UHGV virus genome: UHGV-0341595
Reading direction: 5' to 3' (one strand)
Source: a virus
Length of the DNA stretch: 17,209 bases
Under the pieces are notes generated by a model. The model saw only the letters and a program-made list of their open reading frames with translations. It ran no database searches and was not told where the DNA came from. Positions 2,989 to 17,209 of the stretch are shown here, piece by piece; positions within the stretch are counted from its first letter, which is position 1; the number at the start of each line of letters is the position of its first letter. The position numbers and the translations under genes are program-made.

Positions 2989-3003
2989 CGCTGACTCTCC
3001 GGA

Positions 3004-3744
3004 TTAACTGTCGGTGACGGTGATTTCTGCAACCACAGCAAGTTCACCATTACCGGATACAACCGGAATGTTGACCTTGCCTGCAGCAACACCTTTCACG
3101 GTGATGGTCATACCACTGACCGACACGGTGGCTTTTGTTTTATCCGCAGACACCGCACGGAAGCTCTTGTCGGTTGCGCCTTCCGGCTGGAATGCCACGG
3201 TCAGCGTGGTGCTCTGCCCTTTCACCACCGAAGTGCTGGCAGGCGTCACGGTCATGCCGGTTGCCGCTGTTACCGTGCTGCGATCTTCTGCCATCGACGG
3301 ACGTCTCACGTTGGTGACTTTCACCGTGCGGGTGATCACTTCCTTCGCCGTCACCGCCTTACCGATACTGCTGACCCAGCCGCGGAACACATCGACCGTG
3401 CCGTTCGGGAAGCGGATTTTATAGGCACGGGTATCCCCTTCATTAAACCACGCCAGCAGCGCCTGCTGCCCCTGCTCTCCGGGCATCCACGCCAGCGTGA
3501 AGCTGGTATCTCCGGCAGATTTCTGCCCCTGCCCGGTCGCAGTCCAGTCCGCATCTTCATCATCGAGATAGCTGTCGTCATAGGACTCAGCGGTCAGTTC
3601 GCCGGGCGTCAGGTCTTTAACTTTAGCCAGACGCGACCAGTCAACGTCTGAAAGCGGGTTCGCATAAGGGTCACCGTTCCCCTTATAAACCCACAGTGTG
3701 GTCCCGGCCCCTTTCACCGGCATTACTGGATTTGGTACAGGCAT
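3004..3744 (-). CDS. V: Major tail tube protein V (lambda gpV-like) with C-terminal Ig-like domain
   Basis: ORF track 3004..3774. I place the start at the internal ATG 3744..3742 ([22 protein letters not shown]...), which has a GAGGA RBS and lies 8 nt after the U stop; gives 246 aa. C-terminus is T/S/V-rich, typical of the V Ig-like domain. Confidence 0.9.
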
Positions 3745-3751
3745 ATCGTCC

Positions 3752-4147
3752 TCACATTTCATAGGTAATGACATAAGTCAGATCGGCTGAACTCCACAGG
3801 CCCGCATCATCGTCGCGCCGGTAGTCATAGCCACTGGCCACCATACTGGTGATCAAATCTGACAGTGCCGGGACATCGCTCATCACCGGATAAATCCGGG
3901 ACTCCATCCACGAATCCAGCTCTGAATCCGGCACCTGAGCAGGCAGGAAAACTTCAATATGCAGCTCCGCCTGCCAGGTATCACTGTCCAGCTCTTCGCC
4001 CGTGTATTCAGCGCCGGTGAGATAAACGGCAATTGCCGGAAAATCCGCCTCATCAAAAACAGCGGGGCGACCATCAAAAAGCGTCGCCCCGGTGTCATGC
4101 TTCTCCAGTGCATCCAGTACGGCTGCACGGAGTTCAGTATGTTTCAT
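3752..4147 (-). CDS. U: Tail terminator protein U (lambda gpU-like), 131 aa
   Basis: [72 protein letters not shown]...; ATGA start/stop overlap with Z; lambda order Z-U-V. Confidence 0.92.
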
Positions 4148-4722
4148 CGCTTTATTACCATTCTCAGTTGATGCTGCAGCGCATAGCCCAGCTCTTTCGG
4201 AAGACGTTCACGCCGTATCCGTTCAATATTCTGTTTAAACGCCGTGGTAAGCGGCACCGCCATCGGGATTTTCACCACATCAATGGGGTAACGGTTTTTC
4301 CCGGCCACACGCTGCATGACATGCCACCGGCCATTTTTCAGTTGCTGAATAAACGCGCCGGGAATACGACGGTTTCCCACCACAAGCACGCTGCCGCCAC
4401 CTTTCAGGGATGAACGCTGCCCCTTTTTACGACGTCTGCGGCGGGAAAGGACAACCCGCGCGTTACCCAGCTTGATTACGGGCAAATCCCCCCGGTTAAC
4501 CCTGATTCTGGCCTGCGGATTTTTGACCGTGGCCCTTTTCAGCCTGGCCCTTTCCTTTACCAGTTTCCGGCGTACCTTTGTCTCACGGGCAACCTGTGAC
4601 GCAGACTGCGATATCGCGGATGACGCAACGCGGTTAATGGCCATTGCGGCGGCACCAGGCACCGCCGTTTTGCTGATACGGCTGAGGTTTTCAACGGCCT
4701 GCTCAAGACCTTTTATGGCCAT
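4144..4722 (-). CDS. Z: Tail completion protein Z (lambda gpZ-like), 192 aa
   Basis: ORF track 4144..4722; length and position between FII and U as in lambda; basic RRRRRKKGQR stretch. Confidence 0.88.
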   Translation of the reverse strand: MAIKGLEQAVENLSRISKTAVPGAAAMAINRVASSAISQSASQVARETKVRRKLVKERARLKRATVKNPQARIRVNRGDLPVIKLGNARVVLSRRRRRKKGQRSSLKGGGSVLVVGNRRIPGAFIQQLKNGRWHVMQRVAGKNRYPIDVVKIPMAVPLTTAFKQNIERIRRERLPKELGYALQHQLRMVIKR

Positions 4723-4733
4723 ACATCCCCCTT

Positions 4734-5087
4734 TCAGCGGCGACGGTTAACGGCAGGCGGCACGCCACGCCCAAGCCAGAGATGACAGCTTCCGCCATCA
4801 TCCGGCGAAATCCGGTCCACCCAGAAGTTTTCCTCGCCGATGGTCAGTGTGTCTCCACGCCGCAGCTGCCGCACATCATCAGTCCGGACAAACAGGGACG
4901 GGCTGGAGCCTTCAACGCGCACCCCCTGTCCGGCATAGCTGATATTTTCAGGGTCATCAAAAACACCACGTATCACAGCACCGGACAGCTCACCGGATGT
5001 CATGGTGGCTGACGTTCCCATGTACCCGCGTATCGTTTCATCGGCGCGGGCAATGGCAGCATCGAACAGGTTATCGGAATCAGCCAC
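4734..5087 (-). CDS. FII: Head-tail joining protein FII (lambda gpFII-like), 117 aa
   Basis: MADSDNLFDAAIARADETIRGYMGTSATMTSGELSGAVIRGVFDDPENISYAGQGVRVEGSSPSLFVRTDDVRQLRRGDTLTIGEENFWVDRISPDDGGSCHLWLGRG...; same length and position as lambda FII. Confidence 0.9.
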   Translation of the reverse strand: MADSDNLFDAAIARADETIRGYMGTSATMTSGELSGAVIRGVFDDPENISYAGQGVRVEGSSPSLFVRTDDVRQLRRGDTLTIGEENFWVDRISPDDGGSCHLWLGRGVPPAVNRRR

Positions 5088-5098
5088 AGCGCCTCCCG

Positions 5099-5494
5099 TT
5101 ATTGCATTCTGGCCAGGCCATGTTCTGTCATTTCGGCTGCCACACCGGCAGAGACACGAAACGCCGTTCCCGGCAGCACAAATGCCACAGGCTCATCCCG
5201 CGTGGCGTGAAGTGCATCAGTATGCAGCGTCACCAGTGCCACGACCGTGACCAGAGCAGCCGTATCAATCACGGTATCCGGCTGCGCTGATACCACCTCA
5301 TTTTCATGTCCGGTCAGCGCATTTTCCGGGCTGACAGATGTGTCCTGACCGGCAGCGTCATCCGTGTCATCAAGCTCCTCTTCCAGCTCTGCCACACGGA
5401 GCACCAGTTCTTCTTTCGTCCCCGTCAGGCTGACATCACGGTTCAGTTGCTCACCCAGCACCTGAAGACGGGCAATCAGTTCATCTTTCGTCAT
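5099..5494 (-). CDS. FI: DNA packaging/head assembly protein FI (lambda gpFI-like)
   Basis: ORF track 5099..5533. I place the start at ATG 5494..5492 (MTKDELIARLQVLGEQLNRDVSLTGTKEEL...), preceded by GGAGGA; this gives ~131 aa, matching lambda FI. The upstream 13 codons of the track ORF are probably not translated. Confidence 0.85.
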   Translation of the reverse strand: MTKDELIARLQVLGEQLNRDVSLTGTKEELVLRVAELEEELDDTDDAAGQDTSVSPENALTGHENEVVSAQPDTVIDTAALVTVVALVTLHTDALHATRDEPVAFVLPGTAFRVSAGVAAEMTEHGLARMQ

Positions 5495-5535
5495 GGACTC
5501 CTCCACAGAGAGAAAATGGCCCCGAAGGGCCATGA

Positions 5536-6324
5536 TTACGCCAGTTGTACGGACACGAACGCATCAGGATCAGCCAGCAGCATCAGCGGTGCTGACTGAA
5601 TCATGGTGAACTCACGCGCCGGATCGCCGGTGGTCACCCAGTTTTTCGGGTAGCGGGCAGAGGCGTTAATACCTTCGCGCTGTGCGTCCGCATCCTGAAT
5701 GCAGCCATAGGTGCGCAGACCGCGTGCCTGAGTGTTCCCCAGCACCATCGTGTTGTCCGGCAGGAAGTTCTTTTTGACGTCGTTTTCCACGTACTGTCCG
5801 GAATACACGACGATCGCCGTATCGCCATACATCCCCTTATAGGACACCGCTTCGCCCAGGTCTTTTACCGCTGTCTCCAGCTCGGAATTAGAGCCGCGAC
5901 GGGTATCCAGCTTCTCCTTGACGGCTTTGAAGGAACGGAACAGCGCCCAGCCTTTCGGATCAAACACGATGATATTCACCACGCCGCTGGCGTTCAGCGC
6001 GTAGGCTTCGATATCGTCGGTCGGGTCATACGTGGACTTGTCACGCTTGCTCCACTCCGTGCCGCCGGACTGCGTGATGTTGTTCGCCGCACTGCGGCCC
6101 ATATCCACCTCAACCGGATCGAAGGCTTCACCGGTCATGGTGTATTTGCCCTTGAGCACGGCAGAAACTGCCTGCATCTCTTCGACCTGAGCAATGGCCA
6201 GCTCTTCGTCACGCATGTTCTGCAGGATGATGCGACGGCGGCGGTAAGCCGGGTCCGCCAGATTCTGCGGATCTTCATCCGGCAGGCGACGCAGGGTCAT
6301 CTGCGGATTCACCTCATGCTTCGG
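5536..6324 (-). pseudogene. E: Major capsid protein E (lambda gpE-like), 5-prime truncated: only the C-terminal ~260 codons remain
   Basis: Translation ...PKHEVNPQMTLRRLPDEDPQNLADPAYRRRRIILQNMRDEELAIAQVEEM ... PLMLLADPDAFVSVQLA corresponds to lambda E from about residue 82 to the end. The frame hits TAG at 6327..6325 exactly where composition switches to AT-rich. No E N-terminus upstream; the track ORF starts at an internal GTG. Confidence 0.85.
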
Positions 6325-6352
6325 CTACATGAGTCAATCCCGAAAGAACTAT

Positions 6353-6382
6353 TTGATTTCACTTAGCTTTGTGGTTTATATA
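6353..6382 (+). promoter_or_regulatory. Candidate sigma70-type promoter for the DUF262-HEPN cassette
   Basis: TTGATT (6353..6358), 18-nt spacer, TATATA (6377..6382), about 100 nt upstream of the DUF262 ATG in an AT-rich non-coding stretch. Pattern match only. Confidence 0.3.
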
Positions 6383-6480
6383 TCTACGCAACTCCTATCA
6401 CTGCAATACTTTCTGCAATACAGATATGTGTAGTGAGGACTTGTCTAAAAACCATATTCACGAAGAAAAAGGATGACACG

Positions 6481-7644: not shown

Positions 7645-7648
7645 AATA

Positions 7649-8197: not shown

Positions 8198-8235
8198 TAG
8201 TTTATCTCCAGCAAAAAAAATAACTTGCAAATAAT

Positions 8236-8262
8236 AAAAGCGGTCGCGTGACCGCTTTTTTC
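8236..8262. terminator. Bidirectional rho-independent terminator
   Basis: aaaaGCGGTCgcgtGACCGCtttttt: 6-bp GC-rich stem, 4-nt loop, A-run before and T-run after, 39 nt downstream of the HEPN stop. Confidence 0.75.
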
Positions 8263-8409
8263 TATTTATCATTGCTATTTTCCTTTATTATTTCAGCAAT
8301 TGACATAACTAAGGCGTCTGCTTTATTTCTAGTCCTATCAAACATATCTCTAATTACATCAATATAATAATGTTCCTCAAAAATATTTACGTCTGACAAA
8401 AGTATTGCA

Positions 8410-8456
8410 CAACTCTTGCCCAAAATGTCAGCCAGTTGATCTTTGTTGACTTCCAT
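8410..8456 (-). pseudogene. nu1: 5-prime fragment of terminase small subunit gene nu1 (first ~15 codons only)
   Basis: The track ORF 8262..8456 starts MEVNKDQLADILGKS, matching the lambda Nu1 N-terminus MEVNKKQLADIFGAS as I recall it, then diverges into AT-rich sequence with no further Nu1 similarity. The 64-aa ORF is most likely a chimeric remnant. Confidence 0.7.
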
Positions 8457-8676
8457 TGTTCATTCCACGGACAAAAACAGAGAAAGGAAACGACAGAGGC
8501 CAAAATGCCCGTTTTCAGCGCCTGTCATTTCCTTTCTTTTCAGGGGGTATTTTAAATAAAAACATAAAGTTACGGCGAAGAAGAACGGAAATGCCTTAAA
8601 CCGGAAAATTTCCATAAATAGAGAAAAACTGCGCGCCTGACGCCCCGTAGCCTGTCAGATCGCCGGAAAGGACCCG
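8457..8676 (-). other. Lambda-type cos site (cosQ-cosN-cosB), oriented with the minus strand
   Basis: The minus strand reads ...GGGTCCTTTCCGGCGATCTGACAGGCTACGGGGCGTCAGGCGCGCAGTTTTTCTCTATTTATGGAAATTTTCCGGTTTAAGGCATTTCCGTTCTTCTTCG...GAAAAGAAAGGAAATGACAGG...GGCCTCTGTCGTTTCCTTTCTCTGTTTTTGTCCGTGGAATGAACAATGGAAGTCAAC, near-collinear with the lambda left end/cos region as I recall it, ending at the nu1 start. cosN core is around 8630..8650. Confidence 0.75.
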
Positions 8677-8701
8677 CCAGCCAGAGCGGGCCCTAATTTC
8701 A

Positions 8702-9085
8702 TCAACCAATCAGCTTATAGCGACCATCCCGTGCATTGCGGCGTACACGCTCAATCTTGAGGCATAGCGCCGCATCTGGCTTTTTTGGGACAGGTACGCG
8801 GCAATATTCAGAAGCGCGAGGAATATTATTTATCCAGTCGATCACTTCACTTAAATACCAGGCCTTACGCCCTTCCGTAACCTGCACACGCTCCGGGAAC
8901 TCTCCACTAGCCTCAAGGTTTAGCAGTGTACGCCGACTCAGGGTTGTAATTTCCATCACCTGATTCATATCAACAAGGCGCTCGCTTAAACACATTTTGT
9001 CAGCGATAGCTTTTAATTCCTCTACAGCTGGATTCGGGTACATCATTTCGGCAATTGGCTTAAGGTCATTGTAATCATTCTGCAT
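8702..9085 (-). CDS. AlpA/MerR-like HTH domain protein, 127 aa, last gene of the E-like/D-like operon, abutting cos
   Basis: ORF track 8702..9085. Central segment MEITTLSRRTLLNLEASGEFPERVQVTEGRKAWYLSEVIDWI fits the AlpA-family HTH pattern. RBS AAGGGGGA 5 nt before the ATG; start is 11 nt after the D-like stop. Confidence 0.6.
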   Translation of the reverse strand: MQNDYNDLKPIAEMMYPNPAVEELKAIADKMCLSERLVDMNQVMEITTLSRRTLLNLEASGEFPERVQVTEGRKAWYLSEVIDWINNIPRASEYCRVPVPKKPDAALCLKIERVRRNARDGRYKLIG

Positions 9086-9096
9086 TGTATCCCCCT

Positions 9097-9438
9097 TTAC
9101 ACACGAGCCAGCGGCTGAACAGAAATACCTGAGCCAACAAACGCTGCAATCTTTACTGACAGTTCTTTTACAGACTCAGGCCAGTTCAGAGCATCAACAT
9201 TTAAGACACCTGTCTTATAGACCTGAGCCTGTGTTTTTTTCGCGGTGTCGATTTGTACAGCGGAAACATAAACCGCTTTACCTACGCTCGAACCATCCCA
9301 TACCACCAGTGCACCTGTTGCATCTTCCTGCATCAGTGGCGTAAATGCAGGAATTACCCCTTTATTAGCTGAAAATATCCCCAGCGTAGTCACCAGTGCT
9401 TCAGTGCCAGCCATGAGTTCAGTGTAATGAGTAGCCAT
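9097..9438 (-). CDS. Head decoration protein, lambda gpD family (divergent), 113 aa
   Basis: TPLMQEDATGALVVWDGSSVGKAVYVSA...KTGVLNVDALNWPESV...KIAAFVGSGISVQP parallels lambda D (TPLMLDTSSRKLVAWDG...LWPEA...AFAGTAISIV) in size and motif order. GGGGGAG RBS overlaps the E-like stop. Confidence 0.7.
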   Translation of the reverse strand: MATHYTELMAGTEALVTTLGIFSANKGVIPAFTPLMQEDATGALVVWDGSSVGKAVYVSAVQIDTAKKTQAQVYKTGVLNVDALNWPESVKELSVKIAAFVGSGISVQPLARV

Positions 9439-9447
9439 TGCTCCCCC

Positions 9448-10488
9448 TTAGCCAATGCGAACGGTAACAAAACGATTGATGCGGGCCGGTATTGGCTGTG
9501 GTGCTGAATGTGTCTGCACATATTCAATAGCCGGATCACCAGGCACAATATAGTTTTTCGGTGCAAGTTCGGCTTTAGTCAGCCCCATTCGGATTAGCTC
9601 CGGATCCTGAATACCGCCATAGGCGACAATCCCCTGAAGAGCCGTATTGCCAAGCACCATCAAATCAGGATCAAGGAAATGTTTTTCAGTTCCGTCCTCG
9701 TCGGTATAACGCCCGCTGTATACAACAATCGCAACATCGCCCATATACCCTTTAAAACTCACCGAATCACCAAGGTCTTTAAGAGCCGTTTCCAGTTCGG
9801 AATTAGAACCACGACGGGTATCCAGAGCCTCTTTTATCGCTCTGAATGAACGGTATTTCTTCCATACATTACCGCCCATAATGATGATATTAGTGACGCC
9901 CTCACTAAATTCTGCGTAGCTCTCAATATCATCATTTGGATCAAAAGTTTCTTTATCCTTACCTGACCACTCAGCACCGCCAGACTGAGTGATGATATTT
10001 TGTGGTTTAATATTCCAGTCCAGCTCATAACGTTCAATACCATCGCCCTCAATGATATTTTTCCCCGTTGTGATTGCCTGAACGGCAAGCCATTCAATAC
10101 GTGCACGAATAGCTTTAGCCTGATTTACAATCGCCTGTTTAACTTTAATATTACGCGCTCCAAAAGCATTGTATTGCTCAGGTGATACACCAGCAGGGCG
10201 CACAGCTAACTTATTTGGATCAATGCTGCTTTTCGGCTTCATATAGCCTGGACGAATTGTTTTTGATTCGTACCCTTCGTCACGTGAAACTTTACTACCC
10301 GCCATAGGAGAACAAAACGCTGCAATTGGGATATTTGGATCGTCGATTGTATCAAGAATAATATCGCGCGATTCAAACATTACCGAGCGAGTAAAAAACA
10401 AACTGGTAAACAACGCATTTAGTTGTTTTTGTACATCTACAGCATTAACCACCTGTACAAGCTGGGTAGGCGAATATAAATCAACCAT
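9448..10488 (-). CDS. Major capsid protein, lambda gpE family (divergent, apparently intact), ~346 aa
   Basis: ORF track 9448..10662 (404 aa). Similarity to lambda E starts near MRMVDLYSPTQLVQ; AAGAGG RBS favours ATG 10488 (alternative 10494). Shares long identical stretches with the truncated E in this window (DTRRGSNSELETA, AIVVYSG, ITQSGG) but is otherwise divergent. The first ~57 track codons are probably untranslated leader. Confidence 0.8.
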   Translation of the reverse strand: MVDLYSPTQLVQVVNAVDVQKQLNALFTSLFFTRSVMFESRDIILDTIDDPNIPIAAFCSPMAGSKVSRDEGYESKTIRPGYMKPKSSIDPNKLAVRPAGVSPEQYNAFGARNIKVKQAIVNQAKAIRARIEWLAVQAITTGKNIIEGDGIERYELDWNIKPQNIITQSGGAEWSGKDKETFDPNDDIESYAEFSEGVTNIIIMGGNVWKKYRSFRAIKEALDTRRGSNSELETALKDLGDSVSFKGYMGDVAIVVYSGRYTDEDGTEKHFLDPDLMVLGNTALQGIVAYGGIQDPELIRMGLTKAELAPKNYIVPGDPAIEYVQTHSAPQPIPARINRFVTVRIG

Positions 10489-10662
10489 ACGCATCCTCTT
10501 TGCATTCATTAAAAATAATTGTGGATATATGCTATCACCGATATTTGTCATGCGAATACATGCAACCGAGTGCAATGTTGTATAAAGTTTTGGGATAACA
10601 ACTTCAGCGCGGATAATTAGTGTTAATATCTTCACTCCCTTTGGCCGGGATTTATGTAGCAT

Positions 10663-10696
10663 GCCGGAAAATTTATTTTTTTCCGGCCTTTTTTAT
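10663..10696 (+). terminator. Hairpin with plus-strand intrinsic-terminator features
   Basis: GCCGGAAAA-tttattt-TTTTCCGGC followed by CTTTTTTATT on the plus strand, between the ssb stop and the E-like upstream region. There is no U-tract in the minus orientation, so it would stop transcription antisense to the capsid operon. Confidence 0.45.
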
Positions 10697-10705
10697 TGGC
10701 AATAT

Positions 10706-11155
10706 TTAAAACGGAATATCATCTCCCCATTGTTCATTATCTCCCACTGGTGGATGGCTTCCTTGCTGATCTGCCTGTTGTTTTGCTCTGTTCAGTGCGT
10801 CAGTAGCCTGACCCTGTTGACCTTTTTTGCCGCCCGGTCGCACCGTTCGCGCACTGATTACGCTGTCTGCGATAACCTGCCAGCCCTGCCGCGTTTCACC
10901 GTTCTGTCCAGTCCACTGGCTCACCTGCATATTACCCGCCACGCTCAGGAGTTCGCCTTTGTGATGCTTTGCCAGCGCGTCGGCTTGTCTGCCAAACGCC
11001 AGGACAGATAACCACATCGTCGCCTGACCGTCATCCGACTGACTGCAGGGCAGTGATACCGCCATACGCGCCAGCGTCATGGGGGTGCCCTTGCTGGTCT
11101 GTTTTGTCTGCGGGTCGTCCACCAACCGCCCGTAAACTGATATTTGCGCCGTCAT
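10706..11155 (-). CDS. ssb: Single-stranded DNA-binding protein (SSB-like), 149 aa
   Basis: N-terminal OB-fold pattern VYGRLVDDPQ...TLARMAV...WLSVLAFGRQADALAKHHKGELLSVAGNMQVSQWTGQNGETRQGWQV, a Gly/Gln-rich linker and the acidic C-terminal tip GDDIPF typical of bacterial/phage SSB. Confidence 0.8.
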   Translation of the reverse strand: MTAQISVYGRLVDDPQTKQTSKGTPMTLARMAVSLPCSQSDDGQATMWLSVLAFGRQADALAKHHKGELLSVAGNMQVSQWTGQNGETRQGWQVIADSVISARTVRPGGKKGQQGQATDALNRAKQQADQQGSHPPVGDNEQWGDDIPF

Positions 11156-11397
11156 GCTGCCTGCTCTCCGGACTTAATATTGATTGTTGTCACTTCCTCC
11201 GCTTCAGCAATCTCCCGTTCGGTCAGAGTGGCAAAGTTTGCAGCCGCCGTTGTCATGAATGCGCTAATCAGTTCGGGATGTGCTTTCGCGTATCCTTCCC
11301 CGGCGTTGCGGTCGATGATTTTTATCGACACCCTTAACCAGTGTTCCGTCAAATCAAGGGCGTGCGATTGTGATTTTTTTGTGTGCTTCGCTGTCAT
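11152..11397 (-). CDS. Hypothetical protein, 81 aa, translationally coupled to ssb
   Basis: ORF track; ATGA overlap with the ssb start; directly downstream of the iteron cluster. No recognisable motif. Confidence 0.45.
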   Translation of the reverse strand: MTAKHTKKSQSHALDLTEHWLRVSIKIIDRNAGEGYAKAHPELISAFMTTAAANFATLTEREIAEAEEVTTINIKSGEQAA

Positions 11398-11443
11398 AGG
11401 CTTTATCTCACAGCAGTAAATTAAAATTTTTGCGTTTTAACCC

Positions 11444-11680
11444 TTCACCTGTTCACCTTTTGATATTTTCTCTTTTAATTCATAATGTTAATGGGTGAAC
11501 AGTTTCACAAAAACTATTCACCAACTGTTCACCACTGTTCACCACTGTTCACCCTTGAAGCTCAATAAACAATCAAAAAGGTGAACAGTGAATAGTTTGG
11601 TGAACAGTTCATAAATAACTGTTCACCCTATAATATACTGATATAAAAGATATTTATGACAGGGTGAACAGTGGTGAACA
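11444..11680. repeat. Iteron cluster (putative replication origin): at least 10 perfect copies of TGTTCACC/GGTGAACA plus degenerate copies
   Basis: TGTTCACC at 11450, 11526, 11536, 11546, 11620; GGTGAACA at 11494, 11580, 11599, 11663, 11673; degenerate TATTCACC 11515 and GTGAATAG 11588. Lies just after the primase stop (11695). The octamer is the P4 type I iteron bound by P4 alpha in ori/crr, as I recall it. Confidence 0.8.
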
Positions 11681-11694
11681 GTTATTCCATAAGT

Positions 11695-13515
11695 TTAATT
11701 TTTGCTATCGTCATTAGTGACCGATACACATGATGGCATCCAGTCTTCTGATTCCTCCGTCAGTGTCACGTTTGAACGCAAACCGTGCTTCGTTTTCCGT
11801 TTCATATACTCCCTGCCATATTCCGCCATTGCCCCCGGCATATCTTTACCGAAGCGCGTCAGTGTTACAGGTTTACCAAACCCATGTGCCCTCATATAAG
11901 CCAGATAGGCATGATAGAGATACCTGCGTGGGCTGAATGGCACAATTTCAGCATTACCCACTAACAGGCCATCACACATTACCGATGCCATGAGATAGCC
12001 GCAGAAGTCCACCAGCGAATCCCCCTCTCGCTTTATCGCCAGTGCTTCTTCAGATTTCTGCTGCTCATATAACAGGCGTCTGGCTTCGTCCTGATCAGCA
12101 AACCGTGTAAGCAGATGGCGAATCACTACCGCCAGCTCACCTTCTATTTTTTCCGCCAGCATCGAATCGCGTTCGTTCTCCGGTACAACTTCCGAAAAAT
12201 TGAATATCACCCGACGACGTGAGATCCCCCCGCTGCGGTCACTGAATGACATGGCGTTATTGTTAACCGCCAGCACTACTGCCGGAATACGCGTTGAATA
12301 GGGGGCTTTGTGTTTCGGGTCAATTGCCACCTTGTCACCGCCTGTAATGGCCTTAATCCCTGCCCCATCACCAGCGTAGCGGGTCATATCCGGCATGATA
12401 ATCAGCGAAAAGCCAACCACTAACGCACGTTCCCTTGCATCTTCCAGCGCCTTCATGCTTGCTGATACTGTATTAGCCTTACCCGCCAGCATGGTGCAAA
12501 TCTCCGCCATCACACTTTTACCACTTCCCCCCGGCCCTGTTACCTCAATGAATAACTGCCAGTCGTACCGGTTCGCCAGCACCATGAATAATGCCGCCAG
12601 TACGCGATCTGCCTTGCGGTCATTCTCAGCCACCGAACGGCGCAACCACTTCCAGAAATTCGGCGCATGTGTTGCCAGCGTTTCCCCCTCTGCTGGTGGG
12701 CTGAAAGGTAATTCACTGGCAATTAACAACCAGTCGTTTTTGTTATGCTCCCGAAAATTACCAGTTCTGGTATCAAATACCCCGTTACTGAATCCAATCA
12801 GGTTACGGGCTGTATTCCCCATTACAGGCAAACTTAACTTCATGGTATCTACCGCCGATTTAATAGCGTTCTGCGAATAGCTGATCTCCGCATCAATGAA
12901 AATCTGCGCCATAGCACGCTGTAACTCTTTATCCTGAACCGGCTCCCATACAACGCCGTTGTAATGATGAACGGTGTCAGAGTCGGCATTGATTGCCAGT
13001 TCGCCGCCGTAATGTGCAAGGAGAACTTCACCGCGCTGGCTGGCCCCCATCTGATTCAACGCCAAAGATGAAGCACGCTCGTCATTTTTGCGCTCTGCCT
13101 TCTTCACTGGCAGTTCAATCACCAGACTTTCCCCATGCTCCGCTTCAGCTTTTAGGCCGACAAGGCGCGGAGTCCAGTCTTCAGGCTCTCGATCAACAAA
13201 GCTACGGTAACAACGTGCTTCCTTTACGCCTGCAATAGCAAGTAATGTCGCAACCTTCGTCAGACTTTTCTCTGCAATCTTTCCGGCACGATAAACACGC
13301 ACATAATGACGGCCTTCATCGATAATTTGCATATCATCCAGGTTTTCCAGTTGTTCCGTACCCAGAATGACTGGTGGTGTATCATCTGCTGCAATATGCT
13401 TACCTGCCCATTCATTCCATTCTTTTGCATGACTCCAGGCATCACTGCCAGCAAAAATGATGACTTCCGTCATTTTGTCGCGCGGTTGGTATTTTAAGTT
13501 CGGAGCACGTTTCAT
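11695..13515 (-). CDS. Replication initiator primase/helicase (P4 alpha-like; D5_N/SF3 NTPase type), 606 aa
   Basis: ORF track 11695..13515; strong GGAGG RBS 5 nt before the ATG; Walker A GPGGSGKS in the central region; size and position (after int-alpA, before iterons) typical of P4/PICI replication proteins. Confidence 0.8.
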   Translation of the reverse strand: MKRAPNLKYQPRDKMTEVIIFAGSDAWSHAKEWNEWAGKHIAADDTPPVILGTEQLENLDDMQIIDEGRHYVRVYRAGKIAEKSLTKVATLLAIAGVKEARCYRSFVDREPEDWTPRLVGLKAEAEHGESLVIELPVKKAERKNDERASSLALNQMGASQRGEVLLAHYGGELAINADSDTVHHYNGVVWEPVQDKELQRAMAQIFIDAEISYSQNAIKSAVDTMKLSLPVMGNTARNLIGFSNGVFDTRTGNFREHNKNDWLLIASELPFSPPAEGETLATHAPNFWKWLRRSVAENDRKADRVLAALFMVLANRYDWQLFIEVTGPGGSGKSVMAEICTMLAGKANTVSASMKALEDARERALVVGFSLIIMPDMTRYAGDGAGIKAITGGDKVAIDPKHKAPYSTRIPAVVLAVNNNAMSFSDRSGGISRRRVIFNFSEVVPENERDSMLAEKIEGELAVVIRHLLTRFADQDEARRLLYEQQKSEEALAIKREGDSLVDFCGYLMASVMCDGLLVGNAEIVPFSPRRYLYHAYLAYMRAHGFGKPVTLTRFGKDMPGAMAEYGREYMKRKTKHGLRSNVTLTEESEDWMPSCVSVTNDDSKN

Positions 13516-13799
13516 TTGTTACCTCCGGCAACTAACATTGCCCGAATTTTACGGATATAGCCTGCGGCACGCCTCTGATTATCTGTCTTGCAATTTTTTA
13601 CCAGAATGAAATCTCTTTCGAACTGCTGACGCGGCATAACACATTCAAAATCATAACCATCACGCAAATAAGAGACACGACGATCATCAACCGAAATAAT
13701 CTTTACCCGATAGCCATAGCTGTCTTTAAAAATATCCCCAAGGCTGATTTTTGAATGAGTTTGACCGCTGGCAATAAAGCCAGAAAATTTATTTTTCAT
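13512..13799 (-). CDS. Hypothetical protein, 95 aa, coupled to primase
   Basis: ORF track; stop overlaps the primase ATG (ATGA). No recognisable motif. Confidence 0.45.
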   Translation of the reverse strand: MKNKFSGFIASGQTHSKISLGDIFKDSYGYRVKIISVDDRRVSYLRDGYDFECVMPRQQFERDFILVKNCKTDNQRRAAGYIRKIRAMLVAGGNK

Positions 13800-13802
13800 T
13801 TT

Positions 13803-14027
13803 TTATTCTCCGGTATAGCTCTGGTCGTGTATTTTTATAGCTTCATCCAGCTCTTTGATGACAGGATCAAGTAACGTAATTAACGCTCCAGCTAAATTAG
13901 CATCCCGTTCATCGTGTTCCGCATTTGTTGTCCCATCAAGCCAGGTTGATAAGATTTCTCGCATATTTTTGCCACAAACGAGCGCGTTTTCAGCATGTGT
14001 CAGCACTTTAAAATAAAGATCATTCAT
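13803..14027 (-). CDS. Hypothetical protein, 74 aa
   Basis: ORF track; tightly packed in the same operon (3-nt gap to the next gene). No recognisable motif. Confidence 0.4.
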   Translation of the reverse strand: MNDLYFKVLTHAENALVCGKNMREILSTWLDGTTNAEHDERDANLAGALITLLDPVIKELDEAIKIHDQSYTGE

Positions 14028-14385
14028 GGCACACCTCCTGACGAATACGGGCAGCGAATATCATCACGTAGCCAGTTGGGGATTGCAGCCGGGCTTCCTG
14101 TTCGCTGGCGGCCTCGATGTGTATTACGCGTGGTTGTGCGGTGCTCAGGGCGATAAAACGCCAGATGAAATTGTTTTCGCATTTCTGAATAAACAGCGTG
14201 TTTTCTTCACGCCCTTTCCAGAAAGCCGCAGTATAGCCCATCTCCTTAACCATCTTGCGGGCATCAACCAGCGTGTCAGCGGCTACATGTACCGTAGTTG
14301 CTCCATCTGCCATGCGGTCGTGGTGTAGTGCCAGAAAGGTGTATATAAATTTAGGGTGAGTTTGGGTATGCTGTGTTCCAGCCAT
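14020..14385 (-). CDS. Hypothetical protein, 121 aa, first gene of the replication-side operon
   Basis: ORF track; 8-nt overlap with the downstream ORF; preceded by a palindromic regulatory region. No recognisable motif. Confidence 0.45.
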   Translation of the reverse strand: MAGTQHTQTHPKFIYTFLALHHDRMADGATTVHVAADTLVDARKMVKEMGYTAAFWKGREENTLFIQKCENNFIWRFIALSTAQPRVIHIEAASEQEARLQSPTGYVMIFAARIRQEVCHE

Positions 14386-14415
14386 AATCGTTACCTCATT
14401 TAACGGGTTGGTTAG

Positions 14416-14448
14416 ACGCCTCGATGGTGTTCCCGCACGTCGAGGCGT
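14416..14448. promoter_or_regulatory. 9-bp inverted repeat hairpin in the leader of the minus-strand operon
   Basis: ACGCCTCGA (14416..14424) and TCGAGGCGT (14440..14448) with a 15-nt loop, followed on plus by TGCATTTTCC. Could be an attenuator/terminator or a protein-binding site. Confidence 0.4.
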
Positions 14449-14468
14449 TGCATTTTCCTAAACACGTA

Positions 14469-14522
14469 TGTAATGTGTCATCACACATTAACACATTACA
14501 TCGGGTGTAATTGACGTGTCAA
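14469..14522. promoter_or_regulatory. Operator-like palindromes in a divergent control region
   Basis: TGTAATGTGT (14469..14478) is the reverse complement of ACACATTACA (14491..14500); ACACATTA is tandemly repeated (14483, 14491); second palindrome TTGAC-GT-GTCAA at 14511..14522 overlaps a -35-like TTGACG. Confidence 0.5.
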
Positions 14523-14695
14523 CACACAAAAATCAAAGACGTGGTAATCCTCCGTTCCAGTTTCGGTTAGATCCTGAGTTGAGGGAGTTGATGGAGCAAG
14601 CACAGCAAGTAGATGGAGACGAATCTTTAGCAGCCTGGATTAAAAGGATTATTCGCAAAGAACTACAGCAACGCGGATATGAAGTCAAAATTTAA
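14516..14695 (+). CDS. Small ribbon-helix-helix-like putative regulator (59 aa from GTG 14516, or 34 aa from ATG 14591); not in the ORF track
   Basis: Hand translation: VSTHKNQRRGNPPFQFRLDPELRELMEQAQQVDGDESLAAWIKRIIRKELQQRGYEVKI, stop TAA 14693..14695. The FQFRLDPELRELMEQA segment fits the RHH beta-strand/helix pattern. GAGGGAG lies before the ATG at 14591. Only plus-strand gene in the satellite backbone. Confidence 0.4.
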   Translation: MSTHKNQRRGNPPFQFRLDPELRELMEQAQQVDGDESLAAWIKRIIRKELQQRGYEVKI

Positions 14696-14708
14696 CAGAT
14701 AATATTTC

Positions 14709-14741
14709 ATATAGAGCCATTTATCTCGAATGGCTCTATAT
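14709..14741. terminator. Bidirectional terminator hairpin between convergent genes
   Basis: 12-bp perfect stem (14709..14720 and 14730..14741) with a 9-nt loop, AT-rich flanks; between the RHH ORF end (14695) and the TIR-like gene end (14771). Confidence 0.6.
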
Positions 14742-14770
14742 CTATGCAGATTTTTAGTTCAAAGAATTTA

Positions 14771-15646
14771 CTAAACTGCGTAACCAGTAGCTCGCAAGTC
14801 TTTAATAATGCTATATGCTACTTCTTCAATAGAAGAATTGAATTTTTTATAAATAAGACCATTCAAATCACTTGGAATCACTACATCACCTGTGTATAGA
14901 CAACAAACCTTAGAACGACCTAATTTCCCTACGAAATAACCAAATTCAAACATTACATTTGGTCGTGCACGTAACTCCTTTTCTCTTTCATTATCAGGTA
15001 AAGAGTCTTGCGGCAATAAATAAGCGATCTCATCAGGTGTGAGAAGAATGAATGCGAAACCAACATCACTATTTGCTTCAAATTTCTCAATCACTGTCTG
15101 ACCTACATCAGCTTGCCTATGGAGAACAATAGGTTCTAAGCCAATTTCTCTTAAAAACACTTCTAAGTTGGTTTTTGATATTTCATCTCTTCCATGAACA
15201 ATGAATACTTTTTTGGTTTTTACCGCTGAACTCTGAGGTACTTCAATATTTTCTTCAACAACTTTGGAAGATATAGGAATTAACTCCAGTCGCTCCATAA
15301 TCGACTCTAGTTTTCTTATCTTACTCTGGAGTTTACGCGTAGCCTCACTGATTTTTTCTCCCAAGGAAGTCTCGTACAATGAAATAACACCAAATGCCCC
15401 ACCTTCATATTCTTCTTTGAAATCATCATTTGTGAAACTACGCTTCAGTAGCTCAGCATTAAAATCACTCCATTTCCTGTAATCAGCATTAAACAGCTCC
15501 AAGTCACTATTGTTATTTATGCTTTTCTGTAGGAGTAATAATCCTTTTTGAATTCTGTCTTGAATTTTATCTTTCATATCATCTCTTGATATGATTAGTT
15601 CACAAACAGTTTTCATTTCTACGCTATTTTTTTTTCGAGTAGCCAT
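14771..15646 (-). CDS. TIR-like domain protein (C-terminal, resembling the predicted nucleotide-binding TIR-like family) with N-terminal helical domain, 291 aa; putative defence effector
   Basis: C-terminal half KKVFIVHGRDEISKTNLEVFLREIGLEPIVLHRQADVGQTVIEKFEANSDVGFAFILLTPDE ... RARPNVMFEFGYFVGKLGRSKVCCLY matches the conserved blocks of that family as I recall them. N-terminal ~140 aa is charged and helical. Gene is strongly AT-rich relative to int/alpA and the primase. Confidence 0.6.
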   Translation of the reverse strand: MATRKKNSVEMKTVCELIISRDDMKDKIQDRIQKGLLLLQKSINNNSDLELFNADYRKWSDFNAELLKRSFTNDDFKEEYEGGAFGVISLYETSLGEKISEATRKLQSKIRKLESIMERLELIPISSKVVEENIEVPQSSAVKTKKVFIVHGRDEISKTNLEVFLREIGLEPIVLHRQADVGQTVIEKFEANSDVGFAFILLTPDEIAYLLPQDSLPDNEREKELRARPNVMFEFGYFVGKLGRSKVCCLYTGDVVIPSDLNGLIYKKFNSSIEEVAYSIIKDLRATGYAV

Positions 15647-15682
15647 GCTTACACCCTTTTATATAACAATTTACTACAACAT

Positions 15683-15910
15683 TTATGTCCGCCATTCCCC
15701 CCTAATCCATGCCTGAACTTCGGAGAGACGGTAAGCTACCGCAGTAGCGCCAATCTTGATCCGCTTAGGAAATTTTCCTTCCTTCTCCAGCTTCCAGCGT
15801 GTGCTGTTCGCAAGAGTGGTTAGCTCCCGACATTCTTTCTCACGGATCATACGATCAATGTTAGGAATGTACTCCAGACCCTTTTTATCAACAATTGCCA
15901 TTTTTTTCAT
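15683..15910 (-). CDS. alpA: AlpA-family transcriptional regulator, 75 aa
   Basis: CRELTTLANSTRWKLEKEGKFPKRIKIGATAVAYRLSEVQAWI fits the AlpA HTH pattern; starts 2 nt after the integrase stop. True start may be an internal Met. Confidence 0.8.
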   Translation of the reverse strand: MKKMAIVDKKGLEYIPNIDRMIREKECRELTTLANSTRWKLEKEGKFPKRIKIGATAVAYRLSEVQAWIRGEWRT

Positions 15911-15911
15911 G

Positions 15912-17135
15912 TTAACCAGCCTTTTGTTTGAGGATTGTCACTTTTGAATCAGCACCTGCGATGCTATTGAGATATGTAGTCCAGAGTTCCAGAGCATCCA
16001 GTTTTTTAGCCATAAACTTACTCCGATTGTAAACACCTGCCACGCCAGGTAGCGCATGGCCTAACAGTTGTTCTACTACATAAAATTCAACACCGAGATC
16101 ACTTAGATGAGTAGATAGCGTTCTTCTAAGGTCGTGTAGTGACCATTGTTTTTCATGGCCCAAACGTTTACCGATTTTCCCCCCAATCTTGCTTACGCTT
16201 TCTCTAATTCGCAGACTTCCCAGCACATAACCAGTATGTTTTGTCTCTTCGTGAACATCCGTTACCCACTGTCGTAGAATTTCAGGTACTGGTCTGACGA
16301 TTTCAACACCAGTTTTTGAGTGATCTTTTGGTACAGTCCAAACCCAACTTTCGAGATCCCATTCGCTCCATTCTGATAATCGGGCTTCACTCATTCGACA
16401 TCCAAATACTGTACAAAGCACAAACATTTTTCGCGTGTATTCAGACATTAGTTTTAAATCAGGCTCGACAAAAATTGCCTTCCAGAGCTGGCCGAGTTCG
16501 GCTTCATCCAGAACCCGATCCCGCTTACCTGCAATCTGCCCCACATCACTCATGCGCAAATCCTTTAAAGCATCACACGTCGCGTACTGGCGTACCCGAC
16601 AAAAACGAAGAGCTAATTTAGTGTCAGAAAAAACATACGCCGCCATAACTGGTGCATTACGTTTAATTCGGTCAAAACAGTCCAGCCATTCATATAGGTG
16701 AGTGTCATTTACGGGCAAATGACCGATATAGGGAAAGATATGCTTTCGAAATCTGCCAAGCGTTACAGCATGAGTTTTACGACGCACCTTACAGTAATTT
16801 TCATACCAGTAATTTAGTGCATCCTCCACTGTGACCGGCTTTAAGCGTTCTTCAGCCTGAATCTTAATCTGGATACGCGGATCACGTTTGTCAGCCAACC
16901 AACCACGGCACTCGTCGCGCTTTTCCCTTGCCTGTTTGAGTGACATATCAGGATATTTACCCAACGTTAGCCAGACCGGAGCATCCCGGCCACCTGCTAA
17001 CCTGTAGAAGAAAACAAAGCTCACAGCCCCTTTAGTACTCACACGAATAGAAAGCCCCTTTCCATCAGCGTAAGCGTGCAGTGAGAACCGTATTGACGAA
17101 GTGAAGCTGGTCAGGCAGGCAGAGTAACCCGCCAC
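15912..17135 (-). CDS. int: Tyrosine site-specific integrase (P4-type), ~407 aa
   Basis: N-terminal arm-binding-like region (ADGKGLSIRVSTKGAVSFVFFYRLAGG...LTLGKYPDMSLKQAREKRDE); C-terminal catalytic motifs HDLRRT and LLGHA...GVAGVYNRS with the tyrosine. GTG start at 17135; exact start uncertain. Confidence 0.88.
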   Translation of the reverse strand: MAGYSACLTSFTSSIRFSLHAYADGKGLSIRVSTKGAVSFVFFYRLAGGRDAPVWLTLGKYPDMSLKQAREKRDECRGWLADKRDPRIQIKIQAEERLKPVTVEDALNYWYENYCKVRRKTHAVTLGRFRKHIFPYIGHLPVNDTHLYEWLDCFDRIKRNAPVMAAYVFSDTKLALRFCRVRQYATCDALKDLRMSDVGQIAGKRDRVLDEAELGQLWKAIFVEPDLKLMSEYTRKMFVLCTVFGCRMSEARLSEWSEWDLESWVWTVPKDHSKTGVEIVRPVPEILRQWVTDVHEETKHTGYVLGSLRIRESVSKIGGKIGKRLGHEKQWSLHDLRRTLSTHLSDLGVEFYVVEQLLGHALPGVAGVYNRSKFMAKKLDALELWTTYLNSIAGADSKVTILKQKAG

Positions 17136-17209
17136 GGGAGCAGAGCACCCACCCGGTTCACAGGCCAGTCGGCGATGACATCAAGTACATAATGCAGATA
17201 GCGTTCCGG

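What the first reader, a model, noticed from the sequence alone, without database searches (positions are those of the whole stretch)
8457..17135. P4/PICI-like satellite backbone carrying its own E-family capsid and D-family decoration genes next to a lambda-type cos site
Reading the minus strand right to left: int, alpA, cargo, small ORFs, alpha-type primase, TGTTCACC iterons, ssb, then an operon (E-like capsid, D-like decoration, AlpA-like HTH) ending at a lambda-type cos site. There is no terminase, portal or protease. The satellite families I know carry either no capsid genes (P4-like, classic PICI) or a full HK97-type head module (capsid-forming PICIs). An E plus D pair in reversed order (E then D) beside cos is not a layout I recognise. 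By analogy with the SaPIbov5 capsid homologue Ccm, the pair could redirect or poison assembly of a lambdoid helper capsid while cos lets the helper terminase package the element.
Basis: partly seen in the sequence, partly recalled or inferred. Interest (0 to 1): 0.8.

Follow-up and report, generated by a model that had tools for sequence, protein, structure and literature searches.

The report
Known satellite inside prophage capsid gene
This is a copy of an already published E. coli phage satellite (the helper-embedded PICI "11capE") that sits inside the major capsid gene of a lambda-like prophage; its own capsid and decoration genes are a known, standard part of this satellite group, so the finding is real but not new.

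Summary

The layout is not new:
- The element is about 99% identical to Eco567.11capE of E. coli NRG857c, the type "helper-embedded PICI" (Tommasini et al. 2023).
- The same E-then-D pair (c1499/c1500) is in the model PICI EcCICFT073. Deleting either gene there changed neither lambda interference nor transfer (Fillol-Salom et al. 2018). The proposed Ccm-like role has therefore been tested in that relative and not supported.

- The satellite is inserted into gene E of a lambda-like prophage. The 3' part of E and FI-FII-Z-U-V-G-T-H lie at 1-6316. In three related genomes the 5' part of E and the D-C-B-W-A-Nu1 genes lie just beyond int.
- The satellite extends left to 6317 and includes a DUF262+HEPN defence cargo.
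- In this copy an IS66-family element replaces the first 26 int codons, so it is probably immobile.

Minor extras: the satellite's cosN differs from the helper's at 5 of 12 bases, and relatives carry full Nu1-type terS genes.

The parts
1..5533 (-). Helper prophage (lambda-like) genes downstream of E: H (runs off the window), T, G, V, U, Z, FII and FI.
   Evidence: Pfam hits: TMP_2/Tape_meas_lam_C, Phage_tail_T, Phage_TAC_2, Phage_TTP_12, Phage_tail_U, Minor_tail_Z, Phage_attach, Packaging_FI. RefSeq annotation of near-identical loci agrees.
5536..6316 (-). 3' fragment of the helper's major capsid gene E (from about codon 84 to the stop), cut off by the satellite insertion.
   Evidence: Pfam Phage_cap_E 9.5e-49, covering only profile positions 94-328. 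Joining the two E fragments of L001 across the 10-bp core gives an intact 341-aa protein. That protein is 98% identical to lambda gpE as I recall its sequence from memory.
6317..6326 (-). att core at the satellite/helper junction, on the E 3' side (AGCCGAAGCA here; AACCCAAGCA on both sides in L001 and L002).
   Evidence: It matches the 10-bp identity block reported for 11capE (PMC10111431).
6403..6421 (-). Doubled GTATTGC motif (GTATTGCAGAAAGTATTGC), the HE-PICI-specific attP arm motif, about 81 bp from the core centre.
   Evidence: The motif and its spacing are described in PMC10111431.
6481..8197 (+). Satellite cargo hotspot 2: DUF262/GmrSD_N gene (6481-7644) and HEPN RiboL-PSP gene (7649-8197). 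GC content of this cargo region (6327-8240) is 0.31.
   Evidence: Pfam. PADLOC NsnA 2.8e-59 / PD-T4-2_A 2.8e-38, and PD-T4-2_B 2e-4. An Abi gene replaces this cargo in L003. GC.
8262..8456 (-). Nu1 stub: the first 11 codons of terS (MEVNKDQLADI) fused to unrelated low-GC sequence.
   Evidence: Full Nu1-type genes occupy this position in relatives.
8457..8680 (-). cos site: cosB-like R3/R2/R1 region matching the helper's, and a cosN 12-mer GGGCGTCAGGCG at 8634-8645.
   Evidence: Alignment A1.
8702..9085 (-). Second AlpA-family HTH protein (127 aa). It is not an Rpp homologue.
   Evidence: Pfam Phage_AlpA 7.6e-09. PDB 8C3T 2e-09 and no RppC hit. 36% identical to the satellite's AlpA. No similarity to EcCICFT073 c1501 or RppA. 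dN/dS 0.11.
9097..9438 (-). Satellite head-decoration gene (gpD/SHP family).
   Evidence: Pfam HDPD 4.4e-15. PDB hits: phage 21 SHP 1TD0 6e-16 and lambda gpD 1e-11. 54% identical to EcCICFT073 c1500. 35% identical to the helper's D.
9448..10488 (-). Satellite major capsid gene (lambda E family, 346 aa; start at 10488 with RBS AAGAGGA).
   Evidence: Pfam Phage_cap_E 1.8e-41. PDB hits: 3BQW 1e-120 and lambda gpE 7VI9 9e-76. 55% identical to EcCICFT073 c1499. 41% identical to the helper's E. dN/dS 0.065. RBS seen.
10706..11397 (-). SSB (10706-11155) and an 81-aa protein of unknown function (11152-11397).
   Evidence: Pfam SSB 2.6e-16. Same gene order in EcCICFT073.
11450..11680 (.). Replication origin: 10 copies of the TGTTCACC iteron, in both orientations, around AT-rich spacers, immediately 3' of pri.
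11695..13799 (-). Replication module: DUF4222 gene (13512-13799) and D5-type primase-helicase (11695-13515).
   Evidence: Pfam. The primase is 44% identical to the EcCICFT073 Pri.
13803..14695 (.). Small genes of the regulatory zone: a 74-aa ORF, an Icd-like gene (14020-14385, minus strand) and a YlcI/YnfO-family gene (14516-14695, plus strand).
   Evidence: RefSeq names in near-identical loci. No Pfam hits.
14771..15646 (-). Cargo hotspot 1: TIR-domain protein (PADLOC candidate defence family PDC-S35). GC content 0.35.
   Evidence: Pfam CAP12-PCTIR_TIR 1.2e-33. PADLOC PDC-S35 6.9e-67. A different gene occupies this position in NRG857c.
15683..15910 (-). alpA.
   Evidence: Pfam Phage_AlpA 6e-15.
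15912..17069 (-). Integrase of the 11capE clade, lacking its first 26 codons.
   Evidence: Pfam. Comparison with the intact 411-aa int of L001. Matches to other E. coli genomes stop at window 17069.
17070..17209 (-). End of an IS66-family insertion sequence (C-terminus of the transposase and the terminal repeat ...GCACGCTTAC) interrupting int.
   Evidence: The sequence matches IS66-family tnpC ends in 443 E. coli genomes at up to 99.3% identity, and none carries this junction.

Best explanation
The element is a helper-embedded phage-inducible chromosomal island (HE-PICI) of the published 11capE family. Intact copies are about 11 kb. [quoted passage not shown]

Shown for the near-identical type element in NRG857c (Tommasini et al. 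2023):
- After SOS induction the prophage-plus-satellite composite excises and replicates.
- About an hour later the satellite excises precisely, which restores an intact helper E gene.

Inferred:
- Helper late transcription reads into the embedded satellite and expresses its int, E, D and other genes.
- The satellite replicates from its Pri/iteron origin.
- Helper Nu1/A terminase cuts it at its own cos, and it is packaged as multimers in helper-sized heads, as EcCICFT073 is.

The E, D and second AlpA-like genes are the conserved 'late zone' of this PICI group. They are under strong purifying selection, so they do something. The carriage of a cognate decoration protein suggests that the satellite's E enters a real expanded shell. 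My best guess (about 30%) is that it acts as a spare or co-assembling coat protein while the helper's E is still split. In the only experimental test, in EcCICFT073, both genes were dispensable.

The two low-GC cargo regions (TIR; DUF262+HEPN) are anti-phage defence payloads.

In this particular copy an IS66-family element has removed the integrase start, so the satellite probably cannot excise and the prophage's E probably stays broken.
For: Identity and context:
- 99.1% nucleotide identity to the NRG857c element and 99.8% to other E. coli copies.
- In three genomes, including a 95.8%-identity variant, the 5' 246 nt of E lies just beyond int and the 3' part just beyond the cargo. D, C, B, W, A and Nu1 follow on one side and FI to J on the other.
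- 10-bp core AACCCAAGCA at both junctions; doubled GTATTGC motif about 81 and 132 bp from the core (PMC10111431).
- Joining the two E fragments across the core gives an intact 341-aa E.
- Gene-for-gene synteny with EcCICFT073, including E then D.

Experimental basis:
- Induction data in PMC10111431.

Packaging:
- The cos region matches the helper's.
- Three lambdoid phage contigs carry the satellite's cosN variant next to Nu1 and A proteins 99-100% identical to the helper's. The A match is complete in one contig and runs to the contig end in the other two.

Selection:
- dN/dS is 0.065 for E, 0.24 for D and 0.11 for the HTH gene.

This copy:
- IS66-family end at 17070-17209.
Against: - Neither 11capE nor 50icd particles have ever been recovered (PMC10111431), so packaging and transfer of this family remain unproven.
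- The right junction of this copy is outside the window. It is displaced by the IS element and is inferred only from relatives.
- Deleting the E or D homologue in EcCICFT073 had no phenotype. This argues against any essential coat-protein role, at least with helpers whose own E is intact.
- The satellite's E is only 41% identical to the helper's E, so co-assembly is uncertain.
- The cosN 12-mer differs from the resident helper's at 5 of 12 bases.
- A terminator-like hairpin follows ssb (10663-10687), so read-through expression of E and D is not assured.
Confidence: 0.9

Rival explanations
1. One reading: a new kind of satellite whose E+D pair redirects or poisons assembly of the helper capsid (like Ccm of SaPIbov5), while cos lets the helper terminase package it.
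For: - The satellite's E and D are diverged from the helper's (41% and 35% identity).
- Both are under purifying selection, so an interaction with helper assembly is conceivable.
- PmCI172, which also has a capsid homologue, makes small capsids (PMC6092414).
Against: - It is not a new kind. The family and the E-D pair are published.
- In EcCICFT073, deleting c1499 or c1500 did not restore lambda plaques or change transfer, and all packaged DNA was phage-sized.
- In EcCICFT073 interference is due to Rpp (PMC6739421). This element lacks Rpp.
Confidence: 0.08
2. The satellite's E and D are a functional replacement coat. While the helper's E is interrupted (permanently so in this IS-damaged copy), the satellite's E and D assemble on the helper's portal, protease and scaffold to build heads. 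The element would then be a partly capsid-forming satellite.
For: - A cognate decoration protein travels with E. By my own knowledge of lambda, gpD binds only the expanded shell.
- dN/dS of E is 0.065.
- E, D and the HTH gene keep fixed spacing in front of cos in 51 contigs.
- Tommasini et al. raise the 'backup copy' idea themselves.
Against: - Only 41% identity to the helper's E.
- No phenotype in EcCICFT073, although that satellite is not embedded and its helpers have intact E genes.
- No particles have been recovered from NRG857c.
- The satellite excises at 42-98% by 2-3 h after induction, which restores the helper's E anyway.
Confidence: 0.25
3. The int-primase backbone and the capsid/cos genes are unrelated neighbouring remnants, or the E and D genes belong to a head module of a phage.
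For: A complete lambdoid head module does flank the element in related genomes.
Against: - That module belongs to the interrupted helper and has its own D and split E.
- The satellite's E and D are 35-41% identical to them and 54-55% identical to the PICI genes c1499/c1500.
- One att pair encloses int through cargo 2.
- The block recurs as a unit in 71 complete E. coli genomes and 51 IMG/VR contigs.
Confidence: 0.02

Closest known systems
Eco567.11capE, the type helper-embedded PICI of E. coli NRG857c (Tommasini, Mageeney & Williams 2023, NAR Genom Bioinform, PMC10111431)
   Same: - 99.1% nucleotide identity over the shared 84%.
- Same insertion point in lambda-type gene E, same att core region and same doubled GTATTGC motif.
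- The E, D and HTH products are 100% identical at two-decimal precision (D and HTH show no substitutions, E has dN 0.001).
- Same DUF262+HEPN cargo at the left end.
- Same cos region with a Nu1 stub.
   Different: - Cargo between alpA and the Icd-like gene is a TIR protein here and a 178-aa hypothetical protein in NRG857c.
- This copy has an IS66-family element in the 5' end of int.
- The left att core reads AGCCGAAGCA rather than AACCCAAGCA.
EcCICFT073, the model Gram-negative PICI of E. coli CFT073 (Fillol-Salom et al. 2018 and 2019)
   Same: - Same gene order: int, alpA, ylcI, icd-like, DUF4222, pri, ori, hypothetical, ssb, capsid (c1499), decoration (c1500), then packaging functions and cos.
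- E 55%, D 54% and Pri 44% identical.
- cos-type packaging that depends on a lambdoid helper.
   Different: - EcCICFT073 sits in the chromosome, not inside its helper.
- It has RppA and a non-lambda cosB. This element has no Rpp homologue, has a helper-type cosB, and carries a second AlpA-like gene where c1501 lies.
Capsid-forming PICIs (cf-PICIs)
   Same: A satellite that carries its own major capsid gene.
   Different: By my own knowledge and the abstract listed, cf-PICIs encode all the proteins needed to make and fill their own capsids. That means an HK97-type capsid, protease, portal, connectors and TerS. Here there are only E and D of the lambda type.
SaPIbov5 Ccm (capsid homologue that makes small capsids)
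   Same: A satellite-encoded homologue of the helper's major capsid protein.
   Different: The equivalent test in EcCICFT073 gave no interference phenotype and no small capsids. Nothing here shows size redirection.
P4-like satellites
   Same: int, an AlpA/Vis-type HTH, an SF3 (D5-type) primase-helicase, helper-type cos and defence hotspots.
   Different: No Psu, Sid or Delta homologues in any satellite ORF scanned. The cos is lambda-type, not P2-type. No C4/isrK immunity RNA was found.

Membership tests
HE-PICI, 11capE group (site E:Phage_cap_E:80) | [quoted passage not shown] | tested here: met
   The left junction is in the window: the 3' fragment of E at 5536-6316 followed by FI through H, all on the minus strand like the satellite genes. 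The right junction was seen in three related genomes. In the window itself it is displaced by the IS66 element.
HE-PICI, 11capE group (site E:Phage_cap_E:80) | Short att identity block at the published position, with reconstruction of an intact attB gene. | tested here: met
   AACCCAAGCA is present at both junctions of L001 and L002. Joining the fragments across it gives a 341-aa E.
HE-PICI, 11capE group (site E:Phage_cap_E:80) | Doubled TGTATTGC motif about 81 bp and about 132 bp from the attP centre. | tested here: met
   The window copy lies at 6403-6421, 81.5 bp from the core centre. The int-side copy, 131-135 bp away, was seen in L001-L003. The int-side copy lies outside the window.
HE-PICI, 11capE group (site E:Phage_cap_E:80) | Integrase of the 11capE clade. 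| tested here: met
   Over int, the best-matching genome aligns at 99.8% nucleotide identity (L001, int product WP_000896726.1). The same protein accession is annotated in NRG857c. No phylogeny was run. The window's int lacks its first 26 codons.
HE-PICI, 11capE group (site E:Phage_cap_E:80) | Excision after helper induction. | not testable with these tools
   Shown experimentally for NRG857c only. It is doubtful for this copy because of the IS66 insertion in int.
Gram-negative PICI (Fillol-Salom 2018) | int plus alpA at one end, with genes running in one direction. | tested here: met
Gram-negative PICI (Fillol-Salom 2018) | pri/rep gene with an iteron origin immediately 3' of it. | tested here: met
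Gram-negative PICI (Fillol-Salom 2018) | Size of 10-20 kb, without lysis, tail, portal or large-terminase genes. | tested here: met
   10,983 bp from core to core in L001. All satellite ORFs were scanned.
Gram-negative PICI (Fillol-Salom 2018) | Helper-type cos site or a terS gene. | tested here: met
Gram-negative PICI (Fillol-Salom 2018) | Helper-dependent induction, packaging and high-frequency transfer. | not testable with these tools
   Particles were not recovered even for the type element.
Rpp-type packaging redirection | An Rpp homologue plus a non-helper cosB. | tested here: not met
   No RppC or RppA similarity, whereas the EcCICFT073 gene hits 6HLK at 5e-31. The cosB here is helper-like.
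cf-PICI | A complete head module: capsid, protease, portal, connectors and TerS. | tested here: not met
   Only E and D are present, with terS reduced to 11 codons.
P4-like satellite | psu, sid and delta genes, a P2-type cos and a CI immunity RNA. | tested here: not met
   No such Pfam hits. No Rfam hit. The cos is lambda-type.

The most novel reading that the evidence does not exclude
In helper-embedded PICIs the conserved E+D pair may be a working coat. While the helper's E is split, the satellite's E would assemble on the helper's portal and scaffold, and its cognate D would stabilise the shell. The satellite would then make some or all of the heads that carry it. In copies like this one, where the satellite can no longer excise, that coat could keep an otherwise capsid-less prophage able to produce particles. 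The satellite-specific cosN (5 of 12 bases different from the resident helper's) would keep satellite and helper DNA ends from annealing to each other.
Probability: 0.15. Interest if true: 0.6.

Novelty: already known. Interest (0 to 1): 0.15.

Why it matters
As a discovery it matters little.

What remains open, and is sharpened here:
- Many Gram-negative PICIs keep a diverged E/D pair under strong purifying selection, although deleting it has no known phenotype.
- Whether the embedded configuration gives that pair a role is unknown.

The window is also a clean example of how a satellite-prophage composite decays: an IS hit in the satellite integrase locks the helper's capsid gene in the split state.

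Tried and rejected
- tRNA scan for an att site: no tRNA genes. The target is gene E, not a tRNA.
- Rfam scan for P4-type C4/isrK immunity RNAs: no hits.
- Is the 127-aa AlpA-like protein next to cos an Rpp? No similarity to RppC in the PDB, to EcCICFT073 RppA or to c1501. It is simply a second AlpA-family protein.
- Promoter and terminator scans: counts no higher than in shuffled sequence. They were used only to note two hairpins.
- Was the E/D pair recently captured from the resident helper? No. Identities are 41% and 35%, the longest exact nucleotide match is 14 nt, and only one 136-nt stretch reaches 74%.
- Does the odd cosN mean the resident prophage cannot be the packaging helper? This was weakened by finding three lambdoid phage contigs with the same cosN and Nu1/A proteins 99-100% identical to the helper's.
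- Search for the exact int/IS66 junction in 5,426 complete E. coli genomes: not found.
- I did not run the large protein-database searches or structure prediction. A crystal structure of a 55%-identical homologue (3BQW) and the published family assignment made them unnecessary.

Full report
**What is in the sequence**

Pfam gives the following hits:
- a tyrosine integrase at 15912-17135 (minus strand);
- AlpA at 15683-15910;
- a TIR-domain protein at 14771-15646;
- a DUF4222 protein at 13512-13799;
- a D5_N/Pox_D5/DUF5906 primase-helicase at 11695-13515;
- SSB at 10706-11155;
- a Phage_cap_E protein at 9448-10488 (1.8e-41);
- a lambda gpD-family protein at 9097-9438 (4.4e-15);
- a second AlpA-family protein at 8702-9085.

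The octamer TGTTCACC occurs ten times between 11450 and 11680, in both orientations, against 0.6 copies expected in the whole window. The capsid gene starts at 10488 behind an AAGAGGA ribosome-binding site.

**The cos site**

The stretch 8457-8680 aligns base for base with the cos region of the lambdoid prophage type found next to this element. The match includes the R3/R2/R1 region and the first 11 codons of Nu1 (MEVNKDQLADI). After those codons the reading frame runs into unrelated low-GC DNA.

The 12-base cohesive-end sequence is GGGCGTCAGGCG (8634-8645), not the helper's and lambda's GGGCGGCGACCT. That is five differences in twelve bases.

The left third of the window (GC 0.575, against 0.31-0.49 in the satellite) is a lambda-type prophage on the same strand. 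[quoted passage not shown]

In three complete E. coli genomes that carry the element, the missing 5' 246 nt of E lies immediately beyond the satellite's int. It is followed by D, the S49 protease, portal, W, terminase A and Nu1. These genomes are:
- GPEC709, at 99.8% identity;
- NRG857c, at 99.1%;
- WP8-S17-ESBL-12, a variant at 95.8%.

The two junctions share a 10-bp core, AACCCAAGCA (AGCCGAAGCA at the window's left junction, 6317-6326). Joining the E fragments across it restores an intact 341-aa protein. That protein is 98% identical to lambda gpE as I recall its sequence from memory.

The satellite is therefore inserted into its neighbour's capsid gene. It measures 10,983 bp core to core in GPEC709. 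It extends left to 6317 and includes the divergently oriented DUF262 and HEPN genes (6481-8197), which the finding's coordinates left out.

**This copy is damaged**

All database matches stop at window position 17069. From 17070 to the window's end the sequence is the C-terminus of an IS66-family transposase plus its terminal repeat. It is shared at up to 99.3% identity with IS66 copies in 443 E. coli genomes, none of which has this junction.

The first 26 codons of int, its promoter region and the right att site have been displaced. The 407-aa 'int' ORF is an IS-int fusion. By inference this copy cannot excise, so the prophage's E gene is locked in the split state.

**It is already described**

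A literature search led to Tommasini, Mageeney & Williams 2023 (PMC10111431). That paper describes exactly this element in NRG857c as Eco567.11capE, the founding 'helper-embedded PICI'. The points taken from it are:
- It is integrated at site E:Phage_cap_E:80 of prophage 50icd, with a 10-bp identity block.
- It has a doubled tgTGTATTGCantgTGTATTGCa motif 81 and 132 bp from the attP centre.
- It shares a 258-bp cos-like segment with the helper.
- A further 201 elements were found at the same site.

I found the motif at 6403-6421, 81.5 bp from the core centre. In the related loci a second copy lies 131-135 bp away on the int side.

Their induction experiment showed three steps:
- the composite excises and replicates first;
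- the satellite excises precisely at about 2 h, with 42-98% yield;
- no particles could be recovered.

**The E-then-D pair is not new either**

The best solved-structure match of the satellite capsid protein is 3BQW, a putative prophage capsid protein (1e-120). It scores well ahead of lambda gpE (9e-76).

Fetching EcCICFT073 from the CFT073 genome shows the same order: int, alpA, ylcI, icd-like, DUF4222, pri, hypothetical, ssb, capsid, decoration. Protein identities are 55% (E), 54% (D) and 44% (Pri).

They deleted each gene and found no change in lambda interference or in island transfer. All packaged DNA was phage-sized. Tommasini et al. note that capsid genes occur in 21 of 29 reference Gram-negative PICIs.

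**How it most likely works**

Shown in the type element: helper induction, composite excision and replication, then late satellite excision that repairs E.

Inferred:
- Late transcription of the helper reads into the co-oriented satellite.
- Pri and the iteron origin replicate it.
- Helper terminase cuts its cos.
- Multimers fill helper-sized heads, as for EcCICFT073.

Unlike EcCICFT073, this element has no Rpp. The EcCICFT073 gene at L007 25660-26094 hits RppC (6HLK) at 5e-31. The window's 127-aa protein hits only an AlpA-family structure and shows no similarity to RppA or c1501. Consistent with that, its cosB is helper-like.

**Additional observations**

1. *The cosN variant is a family trait.* It is present in all three related genomes. 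It is also in 57 IMG/VR contigs, which break down as follows:
   - 51 carry the HTH, D and E genes at fixed distances (-437, -790, -1840) upstream of cosN;
   - 2 are cut satellite ends;
   - 3 are genuine lambdoid phages whose Nu1 and A are 99-100% identical to the resident helper's (complete A match in one contig; in the other two it runs to the contig end).

   The same terminase type evidently serves both cohesive-end variants. Another natural variant, GGGCGGAAGGCG, occurs in phage PhiR46_1.

2. *The packaging module is polymorphic.* Among satellites with at least 95% identical E, D and HTH proteins, there are three forms:
   - an 11-codon Nu1 stub (this window);
   - a full Nu1 homologue, 71-73% identical to the helper's;
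   - a divergent Nu1-family TerS (36% identical; Pfam Phage_Nu1 1e-24) with a different cosB.

3. *The primase module is swapped among them.* Identities are 100%, about 85-87%, or roughly 43-49%.

4. *E, D and the HTH gene are under purifying selection.* Between the window and the 95.8% variant, dN/dS is 0.065, 0.24 and 0.11, against 0.26 for pri. The genes are therefore used, despite the null phenotype in EcCICFT073.

5. *E and D are old satellite genes, not recent captures.* The satellite's E is 41% and its D 35% identical to the helper's, and the longest exact nucleotide match is 14 nt.

6. *The two low-GC cargo regions vary between copies.* They match defence-system models: PDC-S35 for the TIR protein, and NsnA/PD-T4-2_A with a weak PD-T4-2_B hit for DUF262 and HEPN.

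**Function of E and D**

This remains the one open point. The carriage of a cognate decoration protein argues that the satellite's E enters a real shell. By my own knowledge of lambda, gpD binds only the expanded lattice. Tommasini et al. suggest a backup copy for the interrupted gene.

Against an essential role stand three facts:
- the null phenotype in EcCICFT073;
- only 41% identity to the helper's E;
- efficient satellite excision, which restores E anyway.

I give a spare or co-assembling coat role about 25-30%, and a Ccm-like poisoning or size-redirection role under 10%.

**Verdict**

The key biology, embedding in the helper's capsid gene, was missed, but it too is published. Novelty: already known. 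Interest is low.

Noticed in passing
window 17070-17209: The end of an IS66-family insertion sequence replaces the first 26 codons of the satellite integrase. The 407-aa ORF called int is an IS-int fusion. The exact junction is absent from 5,426 complete E. coli genomes.
   Followed up: yes
window 8634-8645 (minus strand); L018, L052, L063: The satellite's cohesive-end sequence, GGGCGTCAGGCG, differs at 5 of 12 bases from the resident helper's lambda-type GGGCGGCGACCT. It is conserved across the satellite family. It also occurs in three lambdoid phage contigs whose Nu1 and A are 99-100% identical to the helper's. Phage PhiR46_1 has a third variant, GGGCGGAAGGCG.
   Followed up: partly
window 8262-8456; L003 8346-8888; IMG/VR loci L009-L061: The gene after cos is polymorphic in otherwise near-identical satellites. 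It is an 11-codon Nu1 stub here, a full Nu1 homologue (71-73% identical to the helper's) in 8 loci, or a divergent Nu1-family TerS (36% identical) with a different cosB in 9 loci.
   Followed up: partly
window 6481-8197 and 14771-15646: There are two low-GC cargo regions (GC 0.31 and 0.35). The first holds DUF262/GmrSD_N plus a HEPN gene and resembles PD-T4-2/NsnA. The second holds a TIR protein matching PADLOC candidate PDC-S35. Both positions hold different genes in other copies, for example Abi_C in L003 and a 178-aa hypothetical protein in NRG857c.
   Followed up: partly
IMG/VR loci L013, L016, L020, L035 and others, compared with window 11695-13515: Satellites with 95-100% identical E, D and HTH proteins carry primases that are 100%, about 85-87% or roughly 43-49% identical to the window's. 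The replication module has therefore been exchanged.
   Followed up: no
window 8236-8259 and 10663-10687: Two strong hairpins followed by T runs. The first is a two-way terminator between the Nu1 stub and the HEPN gene. The second lies just after ssb and upstream of the E-D-HTH genes, so that block may need its own promoter or antitermination.
   Followed up: no
window 14516-14695 (plus strand); L001 35679-35873: A small YlcI/YnfO-family gene lies on the opposite strand in the satellite's regulatory zone. A gene of the same family lies next to the helper prophage's cos region, and another is in EcCICFT073. Its function is unknown.
   Followed up: no
window 10222-10236, within the satellite's E gene: At the position equivalent to the att core, the satellite's own E reads AAGCCGAAAAGCAGC. 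That is close to the core AGCCGAAGCA but carries two extra A bases. This fits the published remark that the satellite should not integrate into itself.
   Followed up: partly
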